A DNA stretch of 64,000 nt from a phage. The notes under the pieces are model-generated. The model made no database searches. It had not been told where the DNA came from and saw only the letters and a list, made by a program, of their open reading frames with translations. Below, one piece after another: positions 4,983 to 22,612 of the stretch (positions are counted from its first letter, which is position 1; each line of letters starts with the position of its first letter). The position numbers and the translations under genes were made by a program. The stretch lies in the NCBI GenBank assembly GCA_012490745.1, contig GCA_012490745.1_3925.1; one strand, written 5' to 3'.

Positions 4983-5246
4983 ATGGAAAACGTAGAATTA
5001 ACCACACTTTTACAAATTGCAACCGACAAAGAAGATGTAGCATTATTTCACCGTATTGAAAGTGATTTGTTCAATGGTGAAATCATCAAAGAATCTTACG
5101 AAGTTGTCGGATTCAAAGATGGTAAAGCGTTTGGCTTTTTTGACCTCGATAAAGGCAACGCTGTTACAAAATATGATGTTTTATCTTGTGAGATTCTTAC
5201 AAAATACAACGAAAAAAGGCTTGCAACATACGCCAATATGCAGTAA
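4983..5246 (+). CDS. hypothetical early protein (87 aa)
   Basis: ORF behind cassette C. Confidence 0.5.
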   Translation: MENVELTTLLQIATDKEDVALFHRIESDLFNGEIIKESYEVVGFKDGKAFGFFDLDKGNAVTKYDVLSCEILTKYNEKRLATYANMQ

Positions 5247-16081: not shown

Positions 16082-17497
16082 ATGAGCGAGTTATTTAAAC
16101 ATGCGCACCTTCATGCAGGTCGAACTGAAAATGGTGCTGTAAACCATACTTCATCAATGTCTGCTCTTGTAGATTTTTACAAAGCTGCTGGTTCAAGCCG
16201 TAGCAATGTAGAAATCTTACCAGACTTGTTCTACAAAGCTTTGCGTGAGGATGTTGATGTTGCAGTTCGTATTTTACTGCATATGCGAGATGTACGAGAA
16301 GGTATGGGTGAGCGTAAAGCCTTCAGAACTGTTTTGCTTCAAGCGATTGAAGATAAAGTTTTAGAACCTACACAGGTTCTTCGCATTATGGATAAGATTG
16401 CAGAACTTGGTCGTTTTGATGACTTCAAAATCTTCGTAGGTACTCGTTTCGAGACAGATGCCTTCAAACATTTAGAAGCAGCATTACTAGACCATGCAAC
16501 AGCAGGTTTAGCAGCTAAGTGGTTGCCACGAGTAAAACCACGCCACAAACAGTTTGTAAAACGTTTCTGCAAGTTTGCCAACTTGAGTGAGAAAGAGTAC
16601 CGCACACTGTTGTCTGCACTATCTGATACAGTTGAGCAAAAAATCTCTGCTAATGAGTTTGGTAAGATTGATTACAGCAAGATTCCTTCACTTGCTGCTG
16701 CACGTTACCAAAAACTCTTTAACCGTAAAGATGGAGAGCGCTACAAAGCTTACATCGAGTCCTTATCAAAGGGTGAGACTAAGATTAATGCTGGTGCTGT
16801 TTACCCATACGATGTGATTAAATCTGTTAAGTATGGTAATGCAGATGTTGCTAATGAGCAGTGGAAAGCACTACCAAACTGGATGGCAGAGGGTGAAAAC
16901 ATTCTATGTATGTCTGATGTTTCAAGTTCAATGTCTTGGGTGAATTTTGGTTCAATTACTGCTCTTGATATTGGTGTTTCACTTGCATTGTATGTAGCAG
17001 AACGTAATACAGGTTGCTTTAAGAATGAGTTGATGGTTTATTCAACAAACCCTCACTTCATTGAACTGAGTGGTGATTTACGAAACCGTCATCGTCAGGT
17101 AATGCGTCATGTTGAATACGGTTCAACTAACTTACAAGCAGCTTTTGACCGCATTCTTGAGACAGGTAAGAGAAACAACTTGACTCAGAAAGATATGCCA
17201 AGTAAGCTTATCATCTTCTCTGATATGGAGTTCAATCAGGTTGACGGTGCAAATGGTCGTACAAACTTTGAAGCAATTCGTAGTAAGTACAAAAAAGCTG
17301 GATACGAAATGCCACAACTGGTATTCTGGTACTTAGCAAACCGTAGTGGTACTTGCGAAGTGTCTGTTAAGGATAACGGTGTAGCAATGGTATCAGGGTT
17401 CTCTCCAGCCACTTTAAAAGCTCTGCTTGGTGGTGAGAAGTTTGACCCAACCAGCGTAATGCTCAAAGCAGTAATGATTGACCGTTACATCTGGTAA
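16082..17497 (+). CDS. putative vWA/MIDAS-like domain protein (471 aa)
   Basis: Possible MIDAS-like D-x-S-x-S (MSDVSSSMS) followed by hydrophobic beta-strand-like segments and IIFSDMEF. Confidence 0.45.
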   Translation: MSELFKHAHLHAGRTENGAVNHTSSMSALVDFYKAAGSSRSNVEILPDLFYKALREDVDVAVRILLHMRDVREGMGERKAFRTVLLQAIEDKVLEPTQVLRIMDKIAELGRFDDFKIFVGTRFETDAFKHLEAALLDHATAGLAAKWLPRVKPRHKQFVKRFCKFANLSEKEYRTLLSALSDTVEQKISANEFGKIDYSKIPSLAAARYQKLFNRKDGERYKAYIESLSKGETKINAGAVYPYDVIKSVKYGNADVANEQWKALPNWMAEGENILCMSDVSSSMSWVNFGSITALDIGVSLALYVAERNTGCFKNELMVYSTNPHFIELSGDLRNRHRQVMRHVEYGSTNLQAAFDRILETGKRNNLTQKDMPSKLIIFSDMEFNQVDGANGRTNFEAIRSKYKKAGYEMPQLVFWYLANRSGTCEVSVKDNGVAMVSGFSPATLKALLGGEKFDPTSVMLKAVMIDRYIW

Positions 17498-17499
17498 AA

Positions 17500-17545
17500 A
17501 GTTTTAAAAAGGGTATTGACAATGTGTTTAATACCCTTTAATATG
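17500..17545 (+). promoter_or_regulatory. Sigma70-like promoter TTGACA-17nt-TAATAT upstream of the tRNA array
   Basis: gggtaTTGACAatgtgtttaataccctTTAATATg; second candidate TTGACA at 17609. Confidence 0.55.
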
Positions 17546-17662
17546 TTCTACATAGAAACGAAATGAGAGCTTTTCTAAGATACTGAAAAATATTTTAAAA
17601 AAGTTCTTGACAACCACTAAAAAATAATGTTAAAGTGGTTACATAGAGTTTGAAAAGTTTAT

Positions 17663-17739
17663 CTCTGTTTAGCTCAGCTTGGTAGAGCGTTCCGTTTGGG
17701 GCGGTAAGGCCGGAGGTTCAAGTCCTCCAACAGAGACCA
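17663..17739 (+). tRNA. tRNA-Pro (anticodon TGG)
   Basis: Acceptor ctctgtt/aacagag, T-arm ggagg-ttcaagt-cctcc, anticodon loop tttgggg, CCA encoded. Confidence 0.6.
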
Positions 17740-17746
17740 AATTAAT

Positions 17747-17824
17747 GTTCCAGTAGACAAAATGGTAAAGTCACCACTCTTTCAAAGTGGATATCTGAGG
17801 GTTCAAATCCCTTCTGGAACGCCA
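17747..17824 (+). tRNA. tRNA-Glu (TTC)
   Basis: Acceptor gttccag/ctggaac, anticodon arm ccact-ctttcaa-agtgg, T-loop ttcaaat, discriminator G. Confidence 0.7.
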
Positions 17825-17915
17825 GTTTTGACAGAAGACCAATTACAGCAAACTTAATCTTATTCATCTGAAGGTAAATCGGACAAAGAAGAGATTTGGT
17901 CTGGTCATTAAGAAT

Positions 17916-17992
17916 TGCGGGTATAGAGAAAGGGCGTCTCACATGTCTCATTAGCATGGTATCGGCAGGTTCGACTCCTGCACCCGCCTCCA
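17916..17992 (+). tRNA. tRNA-Met (CAT); possibly initiator
   Basis: Anticodon arm catgt-ctcatta-gcatg, T-arm gcagg-ttcgact-cctgc, 1:72 mismatch. Confidence 0.55.
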
Positions 17993-18069
17993 ATTTTGCA
18001 GAAGACCGTATTCAGCAACAAAATACTTTTTGCGGATAAAAGAAAAAACACGGTCTGGCAATGTATTAA

Positions 18070-18146
18070 GGTTAGGAAGCACATAAGGTATGTGCGGTCG
18101 CCTGTTAAGCGAATGGCACAGGGTTCGAATCCCTGACTAACCGCCA
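18070..18146 (+). tRNA. tRNA-Asn (GTT)
   Basis: Anticodon loop ctgttaa, T-arm caggg-ttcgaat-ccctg, CCA encoded. Confidence 0.65.
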
Positions 18147-18155
18147 AATTTAAAT

Positions 18156-18243
18156 GTGTCGTTATCCCGTAGATGGTAGCGGTGGGGACTGTAAATCCCT
18201 TGTCATTGAGACTCGGTAGGTTCGACTCCTACACGGCACACCA
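18156..18243 (+). tRNA. tRNA-Tyr (GTA), class II
   Basis: Anticodon arm gggga-ctgtaaa-tccct, long variable arm ttgtcattgagactcg, T-arm gtagg-ttcgact-cctac. Confidence 0.7.
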
Positions 18244-18249
18244 AATAAA

Positions 18250-18327
18250 GGTTATGTAGTTTAATCTGGTTAAAATACTCCCCTGTCACGGGAGATGATG
18301 AGGGTTCAAATCCCTTCGTAACCGCCA
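18250..18327 (+). tRNA. tRNA-Asp (GTC)
   Basis: Anticodon arm ctccc-ctgtcac-gggag, T-loop ttcaaat, discriminator G. Confidence 0.7.
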
Positions 18328-18643
18328 AATTATAATAAGTATTTCAAAATGATGTTTGAGAGGGCTATTTTAGCCCCTCCCTTAAAGAGTTCTTACGAGT
18401 ATTCTTTAAAGGAGCAGAAGACCAAATTCAGCAAGTACGTATGATATTTTCAAGCCAATTTAATTTTGAAAAAATTTATAAAACTTGGTCTGGCTCAACA
18501 ATTTTACAGAAGACCGTTTACAGCAAAACTTAAACAATCTATTTCTCCGGTAAAGAAAAGGCGAAGGTTCGATTCCTTCACTCGGCAGATGTCGAGTTGG
18601 TGTAATGGTAGCACTTAAGATGATAAACAACGGTCTGGTAATT

Positions 18644-18779
18644 ATCTTTGTAGATAAGTTATTAAGCTTACCTGTGAGTATGCGACCACAAAGGGTGAAA
18701 GGGTAAATTCTAGATTTAAACCCAAAAAGGCACATCGCTACAGACCTTAAGCAAGTCTGGGTAGCTTATCTACAAAGAT
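18644..18779 (+). ncRNA. Candidate structured small RNA: 15-bp perfect inverted repeat (atctttgtagataag / cttatctacaaagat) enclosing 106 nt with internal hairpins
   Basis: Perfect long-range stem plus internal hairpins cagac-cttaagcaa-gtctg and gggt...accc; lies between tRNA genes. Confidence 0.4.
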
Positions 18780-18787
18780 AATTTAAT

Positions 18788-18863
18788 GGAAGTGTAGCAG
18801 AATGGTGATGCGGCAGACTTTTAATCTGACAGGCGATGGGTTCGAATCCCTCCACTTCTACCA
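18788..18863 (+). tRNA. tRNA-Lys (TTT)
   Basis: Acceptor ggaagtg/cacttct, anticodon loop cttttaa, T-loop ttcgaat; paralog of 20023-20098. Confidence 0.6.
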
Positions 18864-18867
18864 AAAT

Positions 18868-18944
18868 GGTTCAGTCGCAGATAAGGTAATGCAAGGGTCT
18901 CATAAGCCCTATGAATGTGGGTTCGATTCCCATCTGAACCTCCA
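18868..18944 (+). tRNA. tRNA with CAT anticodon (elongator Met, or Ile2 if lysidine-modified)
   Basis: Acceptor ggttcag/ctgaacc, anticodon arm agggt-ctcataa-gccct, T-loop ttcgatt. Confidence 0.6.
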
Positions 18945-18945
18945 A

Positions 18946-19021
18946 GCTGGTATAGTTAAGAAGGTTATAACACTCCCCTGATAAGGGAACATCGGTGGTT
19001 CGATTCCACCTACCAGTACCA
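18946..19021 (+). tRNA. tRNA-Ile (GAT)
   Basis: D-arm gtta...taac, anticodon loop ctgataa, T-arm ggtgg-ttcgatt-ccacc. Confidence 0.65.
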
Positions 19022-19029
19022 ATTTCAAT

Positions 19030-19075
19030 AAAGTTGTTGACACTGAGATGTGACTACTTTATAGTAACCTTAGTT
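19030..19075 (+). promoter_or_regulatory. Internal promoter TTGACA-17nt-TATAGT within the tRNA array
   Basis: aaagttgTTGACActgagatgtgactacttTATAGTaacc. Confidence 0.55.
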
Positions 19076-19269
19076 TTCGTTGCGTAGCGTCTATTTTGCA
19101 AATTTAAAATAAATGCAAACGACAATGTTTTTCTGGCAGTAGCTTGATAGGCTAAACACCAGTGAGGTCTTCCAATCCCTCATCAAAGAATTTGGCGTAC
19201 TAGCCCACGGTATGATTAATAAGGTGGGCATCTTTAAGGGCTTTCTAAGAGAGTCTTTAAAGATAATTA

Positions 19270-19351
19270 CGGGGCGTATCTCAGCGGTCTTCTAAACCGC
19301 CGTTAACCGAGTAAGTGGAGTATGCGGGTTCGAGTCCTGCCGCCTCGACCA
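19270..19351 (+). tRNA. atypical tRNA-like gene (candidate Arg-TCT); cloverleaf not resolved
   Basis: Good acceptor cggggcg/cgcctcg and T-arm gcggg-ttcgagt-cctgc; perfect hairpin gcggt-cttctaa-accgc sits where the D-arm should be. Confidence 0.4.
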
Positions 19352-19494
19352 ATTTAGTTAGCAGATTACTTAGACGACCTAAGCGGGTCTTCCTGTAGGG
19401 AGGTGGTCTGTATCTCATGTTTTCCAGAACATGTAAATAATCTGAGAAGGGGCTTTACAGTGTTGAGATAATACGGTAAGCTTCGAATTATAGT

Positions 19495-19577
19495 ATGGGA
19501 CGATGTTAAGACTCTAAGGCATGAGCAACGGCCTCCAAAACCGTTTCAAAGGGGTTCAACTCCTCCGTCCCATGCCA
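19495..19577 (+). tRNA. tRNA-like gene, candidate Trp (CCA), with 7-8 extra nt in the 5' region
   Basis: Perfect acceptor atgggac/gtcccat, anticodon loop ctccaaa, T-loop ttcaact. Confidence 0.45.
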
Positions 19578-19590
19578 AAGTCTTATTAGG

Positions 19591-19680
19591 GGTAGGTAGC
19601 GGCTAATGGCAGCCAAACAGTCTTGAAAACTGTTGCCACTGTAGAGATACGGTGAGGGTTCGACTCCTTTACTTACCGCC
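19591..19680 (+). tRNA. tRNA-Ser (TGA), class II
   Basis: Anticodon arm acagt-cttgaaa-actgt, long variable arm, T-arm gaggg-ttcgact-ccttt, discriminator G. Confidence 0.65.
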
Positions 19681-19937
19681 TAATAAGATTTTTAAAGCCA
19701 AGCTTCATTCGGATGTTGCTTTGGTATACCGCGTGTATTGTCGTACACACAGATAAAGCACCTAGTAGGTGTCACGGAGAAGAGATAATATCAAGCTCTC
19801 CAAAGGTTCTAGTCACCGGATTAAACAAGACTATGCAAAGGCCTTTTTAGGTCTTTTTAGAGGGCTTCTAAGGTTATTACAGCTTGTTGTGGAACCTTGT
19901 TGCTTAGGTTCTTAGAAGTTCTCTAAAAAGATTTAAT

Positions 19938-20015
19938 GGGAGATTGACGGTAATTGGTAAACCTACCATCCTTAGAAGTTGGTGTTTGAGGGTTCGAATC
20001 CCTTGTCTCCTACCA
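19938..20015 (+). tRNA. tRNA with TAG anticodon (Leu) but class I length
   Basis: Anticodon arm ccatc-cttagaa-gttgg, Leu-like D-loop aattggtaaac, discriminator A, T-arm gaggg-ttcgaat-ccctt. Confidence 0.5.
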
Positions 20016-20022
20016 AATTAAT

Positions 20023-20098
20023 GCAGGTGTAGCAAAATGGTTATGCGGCTGACTCTTAATCAGTAAGACGATGGGTTCAATTCCCTCCACCTGTACCA
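20023..20098 (+). tRNA. tRNA-Lys (CTT)
   Basis: Anticodon arm gctga-ctcttaa-tcagt, T-loop ttcaatt, acceptor gcaggtg/cacctgt. Confidence 0.6.
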
Positions 20099-20104
20099 AA
20101 CAAT

Positions 20105-20180
20105 GGGGATGTAGTTTACATGGTTAAAACATAAGTTTTGCAAACTTAAGTACAGGGTTCAATTCCCTGCTTCTCCACCA
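20105..20180 (+). tRNA. tRNA-Ala (TGC)
   Basis: D-arm gttt...aaac, anticodon arm taagt-tttgcaa-actta, T-arm caggg-ttcaatt-ccctg. Confidence 0.65.
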
Positions 20181-20186
20181 ATTAGT

Positions 20187-20261
20187 GCATCCATAGTTTA
20201 AACGGGAAAATTACAGTCTTCCAAACTGAGGTTGAGGGTTCGATTCCCTCTGGATGCTCCA
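20187..20261 (+). tRNA. tRNA-Gly (TCC)
   Basis: Perfect acceptor gcatcca/tggatgc, anticodon loop cttccaa, T-arm gaggg-ttcgatt-ccctc. Confidence 0.65.
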
Positions 20262-20266
20262 AACAA

Positions 20267-20344
20267 TGCTGCTTTCGTATAATTGGCTATTACACATCCC
20301 TTGTAAGGATGGAAATGCAGGTTCGAGTCCTGTGAGCAGCACCA
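20267..20344 (+). tRNA. tRNA-Thr (TGT)
   Basis: Anticodon arm catcc-cttgtaa-ggatg, T-loop ttcgagt. Confidence 0.65.
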
Positions 20345-20440
20345 ATTCAGAGGTCAAGTGAAAGACCGCTTTGAGTCAACTGAAGACCGTAACAAATTCC
20401 ACGGAGTTGAGTTAGCGGCACAACTCCAGACCTCTTTCAT

Positions 20441-20515
20441 ACTCGCTTAGTTTATATGGTAAAACATCACCCTTACAAGATGAAGAAAAAGGTTCAAGTC
20501 CTTTAGTGAGTACCA
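20441..20515 (+). tRNA. tRNA-Val (TAC)
   Basis: D-arm gttt-atatggta-aaac, anticodon loop cttacaa, T-arm aaagg-ttcaagt-ccttt. Confidence 0.6.
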
Positions 20516-20516
20516 T

Positions 20517-20594
20517 GTTCCAGTATCCCAATTGGCAGAGGATGCAAGCTCAAACCTTGTACTAGTGACGGTTCGAATCCGTCTTGGAACACCA
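20517..20594 (+). tRNA. tRNA with CAA anticodon (Leu) but short variable arm
   Basis: Anticodon arm (t)gcaag-ctcaaac-cttgt(a), Leu-like D-loop aattggcagag, discriminator A, T-arm gacgg-ttcgaat-ccgtc. Confidence 0.5.
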
Positions 20595-20599
20595 ATTTT

Positions 20600-20675
20600 G
20601 CAGGATTAGTTCAAATGGATAGAGCAACAGTCTACGAAGCTGTTAATAGGGGTTCGAATCCCTTATCCTGCGCCA
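20600..20675 (+). tRNA. tRNA-Arg (ACG)
   Basis: Perfect acceptor gcaggat/atcctgc, anticodon arm acagt-ctacgaa-gctgt, T-loop ttcgaat. Confidence 0.65.
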
Positions 20676-20694
20676 ATTTAAAGAGGCTATTTAG

Positions 20695-21252
20695 ATGAGA
20701 TATTTGAAGTATGCTTCATGGATTTTCTTAGCTTTGTTAGAGCCATTTGCAGCAATCTTAGCAGTTATCTTAGCACCTTTTGTAGTTCCATTCTACAGTG
20801 AGAAGAAAGGACACTTACCTTTCGGGTTCAGATGGATGGAGACATATGACAACCCAATTGATGGTGATGAAGGTCACGTTAAAAGATGGGCTAATATTAG
20901 ATGGATTGGTAAACTAGGTGTCTACATGCAAAGAGTCGGATGGCTCTGGAGAAACAAAGCTTATAACTTCTCTTACCATGTATTAGGAAGAGATGTAAGA
21001 GATGTTACTAAGTGGAAAGGTAATATCAACGTAAGTTCTGACCCCGAAGATAATCAGACAGGTTATCTCCTAATGTGGAACAGTAATGCTTGGGGATTAT
21101 TCGCTTTTATCCCATCAATTAAAATCTTTGGTAAACAGTTTTACTGGAGAATTTATATTGGATGGAAACTTAAAAGTGTTGTCCCAGAAGAAAGAGCATT
21201 CTCAAGGGAAAGAGTTATGTTGGCATTCTTTATTCATCCACTGAGAAAGTAA
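20695..21252 (+). CDS. hypothetical Trp-rich membrane protein (185 aa) embedded in the tRNA array
   Basis: ORF with SD aaGAGG; N-terminal TM helix (WIFLALLEPFAAILAVILAPFVVPF). Confidence 0.55.
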   Translation: MRYLKYASWIFLALLEPFAAILAVILAPFVVPFYSEKKGHLPFGFRWMETYDNPIDGDEGHVKRWANIRWIGKLGVYMQRVGWLWRNKAYNFSYHVLGRDVRDVTKWKGNINVSSDPEDNQTGYLLMWNSNAWGLFAFIPSIKIFGKQFYWRIYIGWKLKSVVPEERAFSRERVMLAFFIHPLRK

Positions 21253-21260
21253 AGATTTAA

Positions 21261-21336
21261 AGGGGATTAGTTTACAAGGTTAAAACCTCGGTCTTTGAAA
21301 TCGAAGAAGTTGGTTCAATTCCAACATCCCCCGCCA
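21261..21336 (+). tRNA. tRNA-Gln (TTG)
   Basis: Anticodon arm tcggt-ctttgaa-atcga, T-arm gttgg-ttcaatt-ccaac, A1:C72 mismatch. Confidence 0.55.
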
Positions 21337-21338
21337 AT

Positions 21339-21416
21339 GCTCCATTACTCCAATTGGCAGAGAGGCCAGACTTAAAATCTGTGTTATGTATCGGTTCGAA
21401 TCCGATATGGAGTACC
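21339..21416 (+). tRNA. tRNA with TAA anticodon (Leu) but short variable arm
   Basis: Paralog of 20517-20594 (D-loop aattggcagag), anticodon loop cttaaaa, discriminator A. Confidence 0.5.
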
Positions 21417-21422
21417 AAATTT

Positions 21423-21497
21423 AGCGGTATAGCATAACTGGCAATGCAACAGTCTCTGAAGCTGTCCTATTAAGGTTCAAATCCTTATGCCGCTGCC
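21423..21497 (+). tRNA. tRNA-Gln (CTG)
   Basis: D-arm gcat...atgc, anticodon arm acagt-ctctgaa-gctgt, T-arm taagg-ttcaaat-cctta. Confidence 0.55.
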
Positions 21498-21529
21498 ACT
21501 TCTAAGGATTCTTACGAGAGTCCTTAAAT

Positions 21530-21605
21530 GTGGCCTTATCATAAAAGGTAATGACCCATGCTGTGAACATGGTCTATACGGGTTCAAATCCCGTAGGTCA
21601 CCCCA
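21530..21605 (+). tRNA. tRNA-His (GTG)
   Basis: Anticodon arm ccatg-ctgtgaa-catgg, discriminator C73, T-arm acggg-ttcaaat-cccgt. Confidence 0.65.
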
Positions 21606-21610
21606 ATTTA

Positions 21611-21688
21611 TAGTCCAAGTAGCTTATATGGTTAAAGCGCGTGTCTGAAAAACATGAGAAGAGGGTTCAAATCCCACTGGACTACCAA
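21611..21688 (+). tRNA. tRNA-Phe (GAA)
   Basis: Perfect acceptor tagtcca/tggacta, anticodon loop ctgaaaa, T-loop ttcaaat. Confidence 0.65.
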
Positions 21689-21703
21689 TTTCAAAGGTGC
21701 TTA

Positions 21704-22438
21704 ATGAAAGAGATGACAGAACAAGGTAAGGAGATTTTTAATCTCTTAAAAACTGGTAAAGGGTTTTCTAACCCCCTTATTACTGGTGCAGCAGTTCTCG
21801 GTGGAACCGTAGCTGCCTCTACATCACTTGTAAGCTCTATTAGCTCTGTATCAGACCCTACAGTAAAGGATAAGCTTGTTGCTGCTGGACTTACAACAGT
21901 TCTGCTTAACAGCTTTACCACGAGTCTGACAAGCACTACATCAACTACCAAAACACTAACAGATTACGGTCAAAAGTCCATTGATGAGTTTTCATCACGT
22001 ATGCAGGTAGCAAAAGGTTATTCTAATGTTATGGGTGCAGCAGGTGAACAAGTTGGCTGTACACCATTTAGTGGTATTATGGGTGTTGCTACAGAGTATG
22101 GTCAAAAAGCTATTGATACGATTAACAGTACACTAGATAGTGTTAATGGTGTGTTAAGTGACTTACAAGATGCTATTGATAAGGGTCTTGATACTGTTTC
22201 TGATTTAGCTAATCAGGCTGTTAGCAAGATTAATGAAGGTATCTCAAAGATTACAGCTTATGCAGATGAAGTTGTGCAGATGATTGAAGAAGAAGCTGCC
22301 CTTATTGCAGAGTACCTTAAAACGAATATCAATGGGTTCTTAGCAGGTATCTTACCAGACTGGTTTGATGATGCTTGTAAAACTGGTGTGATTGACACTA
22401 TTGCAACACCAGAAATGAAGAACGCATTACAGAAATAA
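21704..22438 (+). CDS. hypothetical Ser/Thr-rich protein (244 aa)
   Basis: The ORF-track start 21641 lies inside tRNA-Phe; ATG 21704 has SD aaaGGtg 5 nt upstream. Confidence 0.5.
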   Translation: MKEMTEQGKEIFNLLKTGKGFSNPLITGAAVLGGTVAASTSLVSSISSVSDPTVKDKLVAAGLTTVLLNSFTTSLTSTTSTTKTLTDYGQKSIDEFSSRMQVAKGYSNVMGAAGEQVGCTPFSGIMGVATEYGQKAIDTINSTLDSVNGVLSDLQDAIDKGLDTVSDLANQAVSKINEGISKITAYADEVVQMIEEEAALIAEYLKTNINGFLAGILPDWFDDACKTGVIDTIATPEMKNALQK

Positions 22439-22439
22439 T

Positions 22440-22532
22440 GGAAGATTAACCCTAAAAGGTAAGGGAGCAGTTTGCTAAACTGCCAGTAGCTGAGAAATCG
22501 GTGTACCAGTTCAAGTCTGGTATCTTCCTCCA
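22440..22532 (+). tRNA. tRNA-Ser (GCT), class II
   Basis: Perfect acceptor ggaagat/atcttcc, anticodon arm gcagt-ttgctaa-actgc, long variable arm, T-arm accag-ttcaagt-ctggt. Confidence 0.7.
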
Positions 22533-22536
22533 ATTT

Positions 22537-22612
22537 GAATCCGTGACAGAAATGGCTATGTGCCTGTCTGCAAAACAGGTTTATAAGGGTTCGAGTCCCT
22601 TCGGATTCTCCA
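22537..22612 (+). tRNA. tRNA-Cys (GCA)
   Basis: Perfect acceptor gaatccg/cggattc, anticodon arm cctgt-ctgcaaa-acagg, discriminator U73. Confidence 0.7.

What the first reader, a model, noticed from the sequence alone, without database searches (positions are those of the whole stretch)
18644..18779. Perfect 15-bp inverted repeat enclosing a 106-nt structured element between tRNAs
atctttgtagataag (18644-18658) pairs perfectly with cttatctacaaagat (18765-18779). The enclosed sequence contains further hairpins (cagac-cttaagcaa-gtctg; gggt...accc). A closed, multi-hairpin element between tRNA genes resembles the small stable RNAs known from the T4 tRNA cluster.
Basis: partly seen in the sequence, partly recalled or inferred. 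Interest (0 to 1): 0.6.

Follow-up and report, generated by a model that had tools for sequence, protein, structure and literature searches.

The report
Conserved structured RNA beside phage tRNA-Lys
The inverted repeat is the closing stem of a real, evolutionarily conserved, roughly 145-nt non-coding RNA of a family not in Rfam, which always sits just upstream of tRNA-Lys(UUU) in Felix O1-like phages, inside an unannotated array of Y-RNA-like modules next to a Ro60-like anti-defence gene.

Summary
The repeat is 19 bp perfect (18640-18658 / 18765-18783) and 24 bp with G·U pairs. It is the only perfect repeat of at least 15 bp with a short loop in the window (0.03 expected by chance).

It closes a branched RNA (P1, H1, H2, H4) on the + strand. 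The element occurs in five diverged lineages of Ounavirinae-like phages. 10 of 29 P1/H4 pairs show compensatory changes, there are + strand-only G·U pairs, and there is no conserved ORF, no Rfam match and no copy in E. coli genomes. In every lineage it lies directly 5' of tRNA-Lys(UUU).

Best reading: a stable non-coding RNA cut out of the tRNA/Y-RNA transcript and probably working with the phage's Ro60-like particle or with tRNA-Lys. Its function is unproven. The T4 stable-RNA comparison is an analogy, not homology.

The parts
18640..18783 (+). The finding: a structured non-coding RNA domain of about 145 nt ('element c'), with a closing stem P1 and a branched head
   Evidence: Fold dG -48.3, z -5.3. 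Model R1 scores 129 bits on + and 33 bits on -. Present in five lineages. No conserved ORF. No Rfam match.
18640..18663 (+). P1, 5' arm of the closing stem (pairs with 18760-18783)
   Evidence: 8 of 24 P1 pairs show compensatory changes; one base pair is absent on both sides in type B; conserved G·U pairs.
18760..18783 (+). P1, 3' arm; it ends 4 nt before tRNA-Lys(UUU)
18668..18698 (+). H1, a variable hairpin carrying a semi-conserved GAGUAUGC-type motif
   Evidence: Predicted. The motif is visible by eye in the sequences of the lineages. The helix itself is not well supported.
18701..18723 (+). H2, a hairpin whose loop holds the invariant AUUCUAGAUU (palindrome UCUAGA at 18709-18714)
   Evidence: The stem co-varies (GGGU/ACCC against AGC/GCU, and the lower stem within type B). 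In L093 the palindrome becomes ACUAGU, keeping the CUAG core.
18741..18759 (+). H4, a hairpin abutting the 3' arm of P1; its 9-nt loop CUUAAGCAA (18746-18754) is the most conserved feature of the element
   Evidence: The stem differs in all five lineages while the loop stays C(C/U)U(U/A)AGCAA. 2 of 5 pairs are compensatory in A7.
18504..18641 (+). Y4: a YrlA-like module, i.e. a circularly permuted tRNA (anticodon-like arm, T arm, 7-bp acceptor hairpin, D arm) on a bulged basal stem; its 3' strand overlaps the first 2 nt of P1
   Evidence: Un-permuted constructs from 5 lineages are called tRNA by ARAGORN, the native order is not. Four different acceptor-like stems are all 7/7 paired.
18412..18496 (+). 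Y3: a Y-RNA-like module with the same basal helix
17996..18061 (+). Y2: a Y-RNA-like module
17829..17907 (+). Y1: a Y-RNA-like module
16082..17497 (+). Ro60-like protein gene (DUF2828 + DUF7788; TROVE-type ring plus vWA domain with a DxSxS motif)
18788..18863 (+). tRNA-Lys(UUU), the invariant 3' neighbour of the element
   Evidence: The adjacency is kept in L093, L094 and L095 despite rearranged neighbours. Both are deleted together in SP116.
17607..17636 (+). Sigma-70-like promoter candidate for the unit Pro-Glu-Y1-Met-Y2-Asn-Tyr-Asp-Y3-Y4-c-Lys-Met-Ile
   Evidence: Consensus scan only. No + strand terminator-like site is listed between here and the next strong promoter-like site at 19037.

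Best explanation
The inverted repeat is the closing helix (P1, 24 bp) of an independently folding non-coding RNA domain of about 145 nt, transcribed on the + strand as part of the polycistronic tRNA/Y-RNA array that follows the phage's Ro60-like gene. Shown: the structure is conserved and co-varies in five diverged lineages; it is not coding; it is single-copy; it matches no known RNA family; it always lies directly 5' of tRNA-Lys(UUU); and it lies in the same array as four Y-RNA-like modules, one of them a permuted tRNA (YrlA-like). Inferred: RNase P cleavage at the 5' end of tRNA-Lys creates its 3' end. Its 5' side is freed by processing of the abutting Y4 module and/or by RNase III cutting within the near-perfect 22-24-bp P1. 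The product accumulates as a small stable RNA. Its P1-H4 coaxial helix, capped by the conserved loop C-UU(U/A)AGCAA-G, presents the same kind of helix-plus-UUNxAGCAA signature as the Y modules, so it most likely works as an accessory RNA of the Ro60-like ribonucleoprotein, which in Bas63 counters the ppl defence. Compared with the Y modules, its variable domain sits in the 5' bulge position instead of the apical position.
For: The repeat is real and non-random. Covariation: on 14 sequences, 98.8% of cells are paired against 24-50% in slid controls, with 6 compensatory pairs. On lineages A, B and C, 10 of 29 pairs are compensatory, 0 of 500 shuffles reach this, and slid controls give 0-2. Strand: conserved G·U pairs, and 129 bits on + against 33 on -. 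Five lineages fold independently to the same plan. Homologs lie immediately 5' of tRNA-Lys(UUU) in L093, L094 and L095. Context: Ro60 fold of the upstream protein; four modules with the signature CAGAAGACC..CAGCAA..GGTCTGG, 0.04 expected, present in all Ounavirinae loci, with 220/220 cells paired and 6 of 11 compensatory pairs; Y4 is a permuted tRNA; distant phages with this protein also have permuted-tRNA modules carrying the UU(U)NC(A/C)GCA(A/U) motif. Ro60 loci typically encode two or more Y RNAs processed from one precursor (PMC4201824; PMC12135203).
Against: No transcript, end-mapping or binding data were available. The element lacks the features that define the neighbouring Y modules: there is no bulged basal helix, no CAGAAG/CGAA-type motif and no tRNA-like arms. 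A Y-like register for H4 costs 6-8 kcal/mol relative to the minimum-energy fold. The H4 stem similarity to the Y base (CAGACC/GGUCUG) is specific to the Felix lineage and lost in other lineages. The loop resemblance covers only about 7 nt. The element is not tied to Y4: L093 lacks Y4, and in L094 a tRNA-Ala lies between them. Its tightest linkage is to tRNA-Lys(UUU). It is absent from the 75 more distant loci that encode the Ro60-like protein. SP116 lacks it naturally, so it is dispensable, at least for that phage under isolation conditions.
Confidence: 0.5

Rival explanations
1. It is a tRNA-Lys(UUU)-linked element. The structured domain is a functional 5' partner of tRNA-Lys(UUU), made in 1:1 amounts with it. 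It either controls or insulates that tRNA's folding and RNase P processing, or acts as a decoy or shield against the lysine-tRNA anticodon nucleases of host defence (PrrC, RloC and PARIS-type; named from general knowledge).
For: The adjacency to tRNA-Lys(UUU), with 0-7 nt between them, is the most conserved feature of its context across five lineages, even where Y4 is absent or separated and other tRNAs are rearranged. It is co-deleted with tRNA-Lys in SP116. The H4 loop begins CUU and ends AA, like the CUUUUAA anticodon loop. Two other tRNAs of the array also carry long adjacent helices: Leu(UAG) and Ser(UGA).
Against: The H4 stem does not track the anticodon stem of the cognate tRNA-Lys in any lineage. 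The 9-nt loop contains no UUU anticodon. Conserved adjacency may be simple inherited synteny. No data on processing or nucleases exist.
Confidence: 0.25
2. It is only a processing and stability spacer. P1 is an RNase III-type processing stem that separates the Y-RNA part of the transcript from the downstream tRNAs and blocks 3'-5' exonucleases. The interior has no function of its own.
For: P1 is a near-perfect duplex of 22-26 bp in all lineages, long enough for RNase III (general knowledge). A simpler hairpin with the same 11-mer core (UCUUUGUAGAU in L093) precedes tRNA-Leu, and a 14-bp stem encloses tRNA-Ser.
Against: The loop sequences inside are more conserved than the stems (H4 loop and H2 CUAG palindrome). 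H2 and H4 co-vary. A mere spacer would not need this.
Confidence: 0.13
3. It is a homolog of the T4 small stable RNAs (rnaC / rnaD).
For: The genomic setting is the same: a structured non-tRNA RNA inside a phage tRNA cluster.
Against: Model R1 gives no hit on rnaC or rnaD with filters off. rnaC has a T arm and an acceptor-like stem, while rnaD is barely structured, z = -0.8. The element gives no match to the tRNA model.
Confidence: 0.03
4. It is a DNA-level element: a miniature inverted-repeat mobile element, a recombination or protein-binding palindrome, or a chance repeat.
For: A perfect 19-bp inverted repeat. Two sequence types (A and B) alternate among closely related Felixounaviruses, which looks like cassette exchange.
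Against: It is single-copy in the window. It is absent from 5,426 E. coli genomes. Its position is fixed in all genomes. G·U pairs and compensatory changes make sense only for + strand RNA. Chance expectation is 0.03.
Confidence: 0.03

Closest known systems
Bacterial and phage Y RNAs (YrlA / YrlB; Yrl1 / Yrl2 of Thermus phage phiLo)
   Same: It is encoded within about 1.1 kb of a Ro60-fold protein gene, on the same strand. It is one of several tandem structured RNAs that look processed from one precursor. Its 5' and 3' ends form a long stem. In each characterised species, the second Y RNA (YrlB type) is not tRNA-like and is a long hairpin (PMC4201824; PMC12135203).
   Different: The finding has no bulged Ro-binding helix, no CGAA or GNCGAAN0-1G motif and no T or D arm. 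It has a four-way branched head, which a long hairpin does not. The neighbouring modules Y1-Y4 fit the Y-RNA definition much better, although with CAGAAG in place of CGAAG. Binding to the protein is untested.
T4 small stable RNAs rnaC (species 1) and rnaD (species 2)
   Same: They are non-tRNA structured RNAs embedded in a phage tRNA cluster, presumably released by the tRNA-processing machinery, with function still unknown.
   Different: No sequence or structure homology. rnaC is tRNA-like at its 3' end. No Ro60-like gene lies among the annotated features of the 6-kb T4 stretch examined.
RNase III processing stems (rRNA operon stems, T7 early-region hairpins)
   Same: A near-perfect duplex of 22-26 bp formed by sequences that flank an RNA domain inside a polycistronic transcript.
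   Different: Cleavage is untested, and the enclosed domain has its own conserved loops.
Bas63 gp130 (PhageMaP preprint 10.1101/2024.10.10.617714)
   Same: Same phage genus and the same gene upstream of the tRNA array. The authors noted the Ro60-like fold and the anti-ppl activity, and guessed that some 'tRNA genes' might be Y RNAs.
   Different: No RNA was identified there. Here the candidate RNAs are located in the gaps between tRNA genes, not among the tRNA genes themselves, and the finding is an additional RNA that is not tRNA-like.

Membership tests
Y RNA / YrlA-YrlB class (Ro60-associated non-coding RNAs) | Encoded near a Ro60 ortholog (within about 4 kb) on the same strand | tested here: met
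   The element starts 1,143 nt after the stop codon of ORF 16082-17497, on the same strand. The ORF has a Ro60 fold and full-length similarity to mycobacteriophage Ro-like proteins.
Y RNA / YrlA-YrlB class (Ro60-associated non-coding RNAs) | 5' and 3' ends pair to form a long stem | tested here: met
   P1 is 24 bp and co-varies. The true RNA ends are unknown.
Y RNA / YrlA-YrlB class (Ro60-associated non-coding RNAs) | Bulged helix with a conserved Ro-binding motif (GNCGAAN0-1G, CGAA, or GGUCCGA) near the 5' end | tested here: not met
   P1 is an uninterrupted duplex with no such motif. By contrast, Y1-Y4 have the invariant C-ARA-AGAC / GUCU-G-G bulged helix. A Y-like register around H4 costs 6-8 kcal/mol.
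Y RNA / YrlA-YrlB class (Ro60-associated non-coding RNAs) | tRNA-like domain (T arm, D arm, acceptor-like stem), required for YrlA but not for YrlB | tested here: not met
   No tRNA-model or ARAGORN signal in 18640-18783. The feature is met by the neighbouring Y4.
Y RNA / YrlA-YrlB class (Ro60-associated non-coding RNAs) | Physical association with the Ro60 protein, and dependence on it for stability | not testable with these tools
   This needs RIP/CLIP or EMSA with the gp130 ortholog.
T4 rnaC / rnaD stable RNAs | Sequence and structure homology to rnaC or rnaD | tested here: not met
   R1 with filters off gives no hit within L092 2409-2672. The folds differ.
T4 rnaC / rnaD stable RNAs | Located in, and co-transcribed with, a phage tRNA cluster | tested here: inconclusive
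   The position is met. Co-transcription is inferred only from strand, promoter-like sites and the absence of terminator-like sites.
Mobile inverted-repeat element (MITE-like) | Multiple copies, variable insertion sites, DNA-level symmetric repeats | tested here: not met
   Single copy. Fixed position. No E. coli genome hit. G·U pairs and strand-asymmetric score.
Intrinsic terminator | G+C-rich hairpin followed by a U tract | tested here: not met
   The scan does not list it. P1 is A+U-rich and is followed by UAAUGG and then a tRNA.
RNase III processing stem | About 20 bp or more of nearly perfect double-stranded RNA flanking an RNA domain | tested here: met
   22-26 bp in five lineages. Cleavage itself cannot be tested here.
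Any Rfam family | Covariance-model match | tested here: not met
   No hit at gathering threshold or at E up to 10 in a sensitive 386-nt scan.

The most novel reading that the evidence does not exclude
The whole 17.8-18.8 kb stretch is one phage anti-defence ribonucleoprotein locus: a Ro60-like protein, four Y RNAs (one a permuted tRNA that in some lineages encodes its own CCA inside the acceptor loop), and this fifth RNA. In the fifth RNA the Y-type helix-plus-AGCAA signature is presented on a rearranged scaffold that is physically coupled to tRNA-Lys(UUU). Under this reading the element links the Ro60 particle to protection or replacement of lysine tRNA during attack by host nucleases, a role not known for any Ro60/Y RNA system.
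Probability: 0.2. Interest if true: 0.85.

Novelty: new variant of a known kind. Interest (0 to 1): 0.62.

Why it matters
Ro60/Y-RNA particles are well studied in animals and in a few bacteria, but their role in phages is barely known. A 2024 screen showed that the Felixounavirus Ro60-like protein (Bas63 gp130) counters a bacterial defence system, and its authors could only guess that Y RNAs hide among the tRNA genes. This analysis places concrete RNA candidates on the map: four Y-type modules, a permuted tRNA, and the reported element, a co-varying RNA absent from Rfam that is tied to tRNA-Lys(UUU). That makes the hypothesis directly testable in a tractable E. coli and Salmonella phage by deletions, pull-downs and northern blots. 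It also shows that the 'empty' gaps in the tRNA arrays of more than 250 sequenced phage genomes are dense with conserved non-coding RNAs, and that permuted-tRNA Y RNAs accompany DUF2828-type Ro60 proteins in at least some distant phages (6 of 75 loci examined).

Tried and rejected
- Rfam at gathering and at permissive thresholds found no family for the element.
- A single-sequence AlphaFold model of the upstream protein was unusable (pLDDT 42.8). It was replaced by a model built from an alignment.
- A profile-versus-PDB sequence search gave only marginal Ro60 hits (E 0.6-0.95). Fold comparison was needed.
- Anticodon-arm mimic of tRNA-Lys: the window's H4 stem (CAGAC/GUCUG) looks like the tRNA-Lys anticodon stem, but the two do not co-vary across lineages. 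Rejected, apart from the shared CUU...AA loop ends.
- H4 as a literal copy of the Y-module base: the alternative register costs 6-8 kcal/mol, and the stem similarity is lineage-specific. Only the loop motif is kept as a lead.
- Y4 and the element as one obligatory composite RNA: rejected, because L093 lacks Y4 and L094 has a tRNA-Ala between them.
- T4 rnaC/rnaD homology: rejected.
- Coding potential: rejected.
- Host origin or a multi-copy element: rejected.
- Model R1 in 75 distant loci encoding the Ro60-like protein gave no homologs.
- A MAFFT alignment of all five lineages misaligned the 5' arm. P778 and L094 were therefore judged from their independent folds only.
- The pattern search was uninformative, because my gap range of 20-50 nt was too short for the roughly 100-nt interior.
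- The Chen 2014 supplementary tables and the 2020 Ro60 review were not available. I therefore cannot exclude that Felix O1-like phages are listed there, although that study only searched genomes annotated with a TROVE domain.

Full report
**1. The observation**

The repeat is longer than reported: 19 bp perfect (18640-18658 / 18765-18783), 22 nt at 95% in the repeat finder, and 24 bp when G·U pairs are counted (18640-18663 / 18760-18783).

It is the only perfect inverted repeat of at least 15 bp with a loop of 200 nt or less in the whole 64-kb window. 200 dinucleotide-preserving shuffles average 0.03 such repeats, and only 6 contain any.

The 152-nt stretch folds at -48.3 kcal/mol (z = -5.3; 0 of 200 shuffles fold as well) into:
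- a closing stem, P1;
- H1 (18668-18698);
- a weak H3;

**2. Where it is**

The window is a Felix O1-like phage (Felixounavirus; 100% identical over this gap to phages KhF3 and XTG1). A 25-gene tRNA array runs from 17663 to 22612 on the + strand.

The element lies in a 460-nt gap that most deposited genomes leave unannotated. tRNA-Lys(UUU) begins 4 nt after P1 (18788). The upstream neighbour is not a tRNA gene.

**3. It is a conserved + strand RNA structure**

The element is present at the same position in Felixounavirus, Suspvirus and Mooglevirus, in two sequence types, A and B.

On 14 distinct sequences, the P1 + H2 + H4 pairs gave:

| Measure | Result |
|---|---|
| Cells paired | 98.8% |
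| Cells paired when partners are slid | 24-50% |
| Pairs with compensatory double changes | 6 |
| Shuffles reaching the covariation score | 0 of 500 |

One base pair is missing on both sides in type B. Several conserved pairs are G·U, which would be C·A mismatches on the other strand. Type B folds on its own into the same plan, with three further compensatory pairs in H2.

A covariance model (R1) scores 129 bits on the + strand and 33 bits on the - strand.

R1 then found diverged copies in contigs whose Ro60-like protein is only 54-64% identical to the window's:

| Locus | Score |
|---|---|
| L093 | 55 bits, E = 6e-12 |
| L095 (Yersinia phage P778) | 27 bits |
| L094 | 21 bits |

Each folds independently into a long P1, a branched head, and a last hairpin abutting the 3' strand of P1.

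With lineage C added, 10 of 29 P1/H4 pairs are compensatory. None of 500 shuffles reach this, and slid controls give 0-2.

The H4 stem is different in every lineage (CAGAC/GUCUG, CAAACC/GGUUUG, CAGUC/GACUG, AAGUC/GACUU, CUGUUC/GAACGG), while its 9-nt loop stays C(C/U)U(U/A)AGCAA. The H2 loop keeps a CUAG-centred palindrome (UCUAGA, or ACUAGU in L093).

Other explanations for the sequence conservation were checked:
- No reading frame is conserved.
- There is no Rfam match, even in a sensitive scan.
- There is no copy in 5,426 complete E. coli genomes.
- There is no second copy in the window.

**4. The neighbourhood changes the interpretation**

*The upstream protein has a Ro60 fold.* The ORF directly upstream of the array (16082-17497) matches DUF2828 + DUF7788. 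An alignment-based AlphaFold model (pLDDT 89.3, pTM 0.88) gave these results:
- The ten best Foldseek hits in the PDB are all Ro60 (E 3e-8 to 1.5e-6; TM up to 0.65).
- By sequence, it is 31-34% identical over its full length to mycobacteriophage proteins annotated 'Ro-like RNA binding protein' (E down to 1e-77).

A 2024 preprint already noted that the Bas63 ortholog, gp130, resembles Ro60 and counters the ppl defence. It speculated that some of the tRNA genes may be Y RNAs, but identified none (10.1101/2024.10.10.617714).

*Four Y-RNA-like modules lie between the gene and the finding.* The signature CAGAAGACC-NNNTN-CAGCAA occurs four times on the + strand (17832, 17999, 18415, 18507), where 0.04 matches are expected. 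Each copy has a GGTCTGG partner 60-130 nt downstream. The same four modules occur in all ten Ounavirinae loci first examined.

They fold with a common base:
- a 4-bp helix I;
- an internal loop (A-R-A opposite a single G);
- helix II (AGACCNN / NNGGUCU).

On 20 distinct bases, 220 of 220 cells are paired and 6 of 11 pairs are compensatory. A conserved bulged helix formed by the 5' and 3' ends is the hallmark of Y RNAs (PMC4201824; PMC12135203).

*Y4 is a circularly permuted tRNA.* The fourth module (Y4, 18504-18641) contains, in order, an anticodon-like arm, a T arm (GAAGG-UUCGAUU-CCUUC), a 7-bp acceptor hairpin and a D arm. When the halves are re-joined in tRNA order, ARAGORN calls a 74-nt tRNA in all five lineages tested; the native order gives none. 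The acceptor-like stem has four entirely different sequences, each 7/7 paired.

This T arm, acceptor hairpin, D arm order is the YrlA arrangement (PMC4201824). In Moogle and L094 the acceptor loop encodes a discriminator base plus CCA.

*The same class occurs in distant phages.* Strict permuted-tRNA modules were found on the gene's strand in 6 of 75 distant loci encoding the Ro60-like protein. None were found on the other strand or in reversed-sequence controls. They share the basal stem followed by UU(U)N-C(A/C)GCA(A/U), and a C(U/A)G(R)UAA tail. L025 has the canonical CGAAG.

**5. How the finding relates to this system**

Points in favour of a link:
- It lies in the same probable transcription unit. 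Promoter-like sites are at 17516 and 17607, the next strong one is at 19037, and no + strand terminator-like site lies between.
- It abuts Y4, and the two share 2 nt.
- Its P1-H4 stack capped by CUUAAGCAA resembles the helix-plus-UUUACAGCAA signature of the Y modules.

Points against:
- It lacks the bulged helix, the CAGAAG/CGAA-type motif and any tRNA-like arm.
- A Y-like register costs 6-8 kcal/mol.
- The stem similarity is lineage-specific.
- It is independent of Y4 in L093 and L094.
- It is absent from the 75 distant loci.

Its most conserved linkage is to tRNA-Lys(UUU): 0-7 nt upstream in all five lineages, and deleted together with it in phage SP116. An anticodon-arm mimic was tested and not supported.

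**6. Comparison with the known**

T4 rnaC has a T arm and an acceptor-like stem, rnaD is barely structured, and R1 gives no hit on either.

The closest known class is the second, non-tRNA-like Y RNA that accompanies YrlA in characterised Ro60 loci. Membership is not established, because one defining feature (the bulged Ro-binding motif) was tested and not met, and another (binding) cannot be tested here.

P1 meets the length requirement of an RNase III substrate. A simpler hairpin precedes tRNA-Leu(UAG), and in L093 it shares the same 11-mer core. A 14-bp stem encloses tRNA-Ser.

**7. Verdict**

The feature is real, non-random and under selection as an RNA structure. It represents an RNA family that is not in Rfam, and I found no description of it in the searchable literature.

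My best explanation (confidence 0.5) is that it is a stable non-coding RNA excised from the tRNA/Y-RNA transcript that works with the phage's Ro60-like particle. The main rival (0.25) is a function tied to tRNA-Lys(UUU). A plain processing spacer (0.13), T4 homology (0.03) and a DNA-level element or chance repeat (0.03) are less likely.

No transcript or binding data could be examined, so function remains inference.

Noticed in passing
window 17829-17907, 17996-18061, 18412-18496, 18504-18641: Four unannotated Y-RNA-like modules share a co-varying bulged basal helix (C-ARA-AGACC...GGUCU-G-G). The fourth is a circularly permuted tRNA (YrlA-like) that ARAGORN calls a tRNA once it is un-permuted. 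In Moogle and L094 its acceptor loop encodes a discriminator base plus CCA.
   Followed up: yes
L017:359-413, L018:2304-2354, L025:3372-3424, L031:141-202, L036:7911-7962, L062:4945-4995 and 5063-5118: Distant phages that encode a DUF2828-type Ro60-like protein carry permuted-tRNA modules on the same strand, with a shared UU(U)NC(A/C)GCA(A/U) motif after the basal stem and a C(U/A)G(R)UAA tail. This suggests a widespread Y-RNA class that I did not find described in the searchable literature. Only 6 of 75 loci passed the strict descriptor.
   Followed up: partly
window 19847-19936: A second long hairpin (stem of about 27 bp, dG -39.9, z -5.8) lies immediately 5' of tRNA-Leu(UAG). In L093 its stem shares the 11-mer UCUUUGUAGAU with P1 of the finding. 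Its apical loop UUGUUGCUU is conserved in Felixounavirus and Mooglevirus, with a co-varying mini-stem. The loop is complementary to AAGCAA in the finding's H4 loop and to AGCAACAA in Y2, so loop-loop pairing is possible but untested.
   Followed up: partly
window 19577-19590 / 19679-19692: tRNA-Ser(UGA) is enclosed by a 14-bp stem formed by its 5' leader and 3' trailer, which extends the acceptor stem. R1 hits at the tRNA-Ser positions in L093 and L095 suggest similar flanking stems there.
   Followed up: partly
window 18963-19348 and 19497-19571: There are sub-threshold Rfam hits to permuted tmRNA (18963-19147, 28.8 bits) and tmRNA (19079-19268, 15.4 bits). An odd tRNA-like element (19270-19348, 31.7 bits) has almost no D arm and a long variable insertion, and ARAGORN does not call it. 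There is also a weak tRNA-Sec-like hit (19497-19571). A strong promoter-like site lies at 19037-19065 (TTGACA-17-TATAGT). In phage bumzen this gap holds an HNH endonuclease gene.
   Followed up: no
window 18358-18412: Two further stable hairpins (GAGAGGGCUAUUUUAGCCCCUC and CCUUAAAGAGUUCUUACGAGUAUUCUUUAAAGG) lie between tRNA-Asp and module Y3. Their role is unknown.
   Followed up: no
L090 (Salmonella phage SP116), locus 1359-1594: This is a natural deletion variant. The 3' part of Y4, the finding and tRNA-Lys(UUU) are all missing while the Ro60-like gene is kept, so these parts are dispensable for that isolate.
   Followed up: partly
window 20695-21252 and 21641-22438: Two protein genes of unknown function (DUF7338, DUF7217) are embedded within the tRNA array. 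DUF7217 is also present in the syntenic locus L093.
   Followed up: no
L092 (phage T4) 2409-2547, minus strand: T4 rnaC folds with a canonical T arm (CCGGG-UUCGAAU-CCCGG) and an acceptor-like terminal stem, so it is itself tRNA-derived. rnaD shows no significant structure (z = -0.8).
   Followed up: partly
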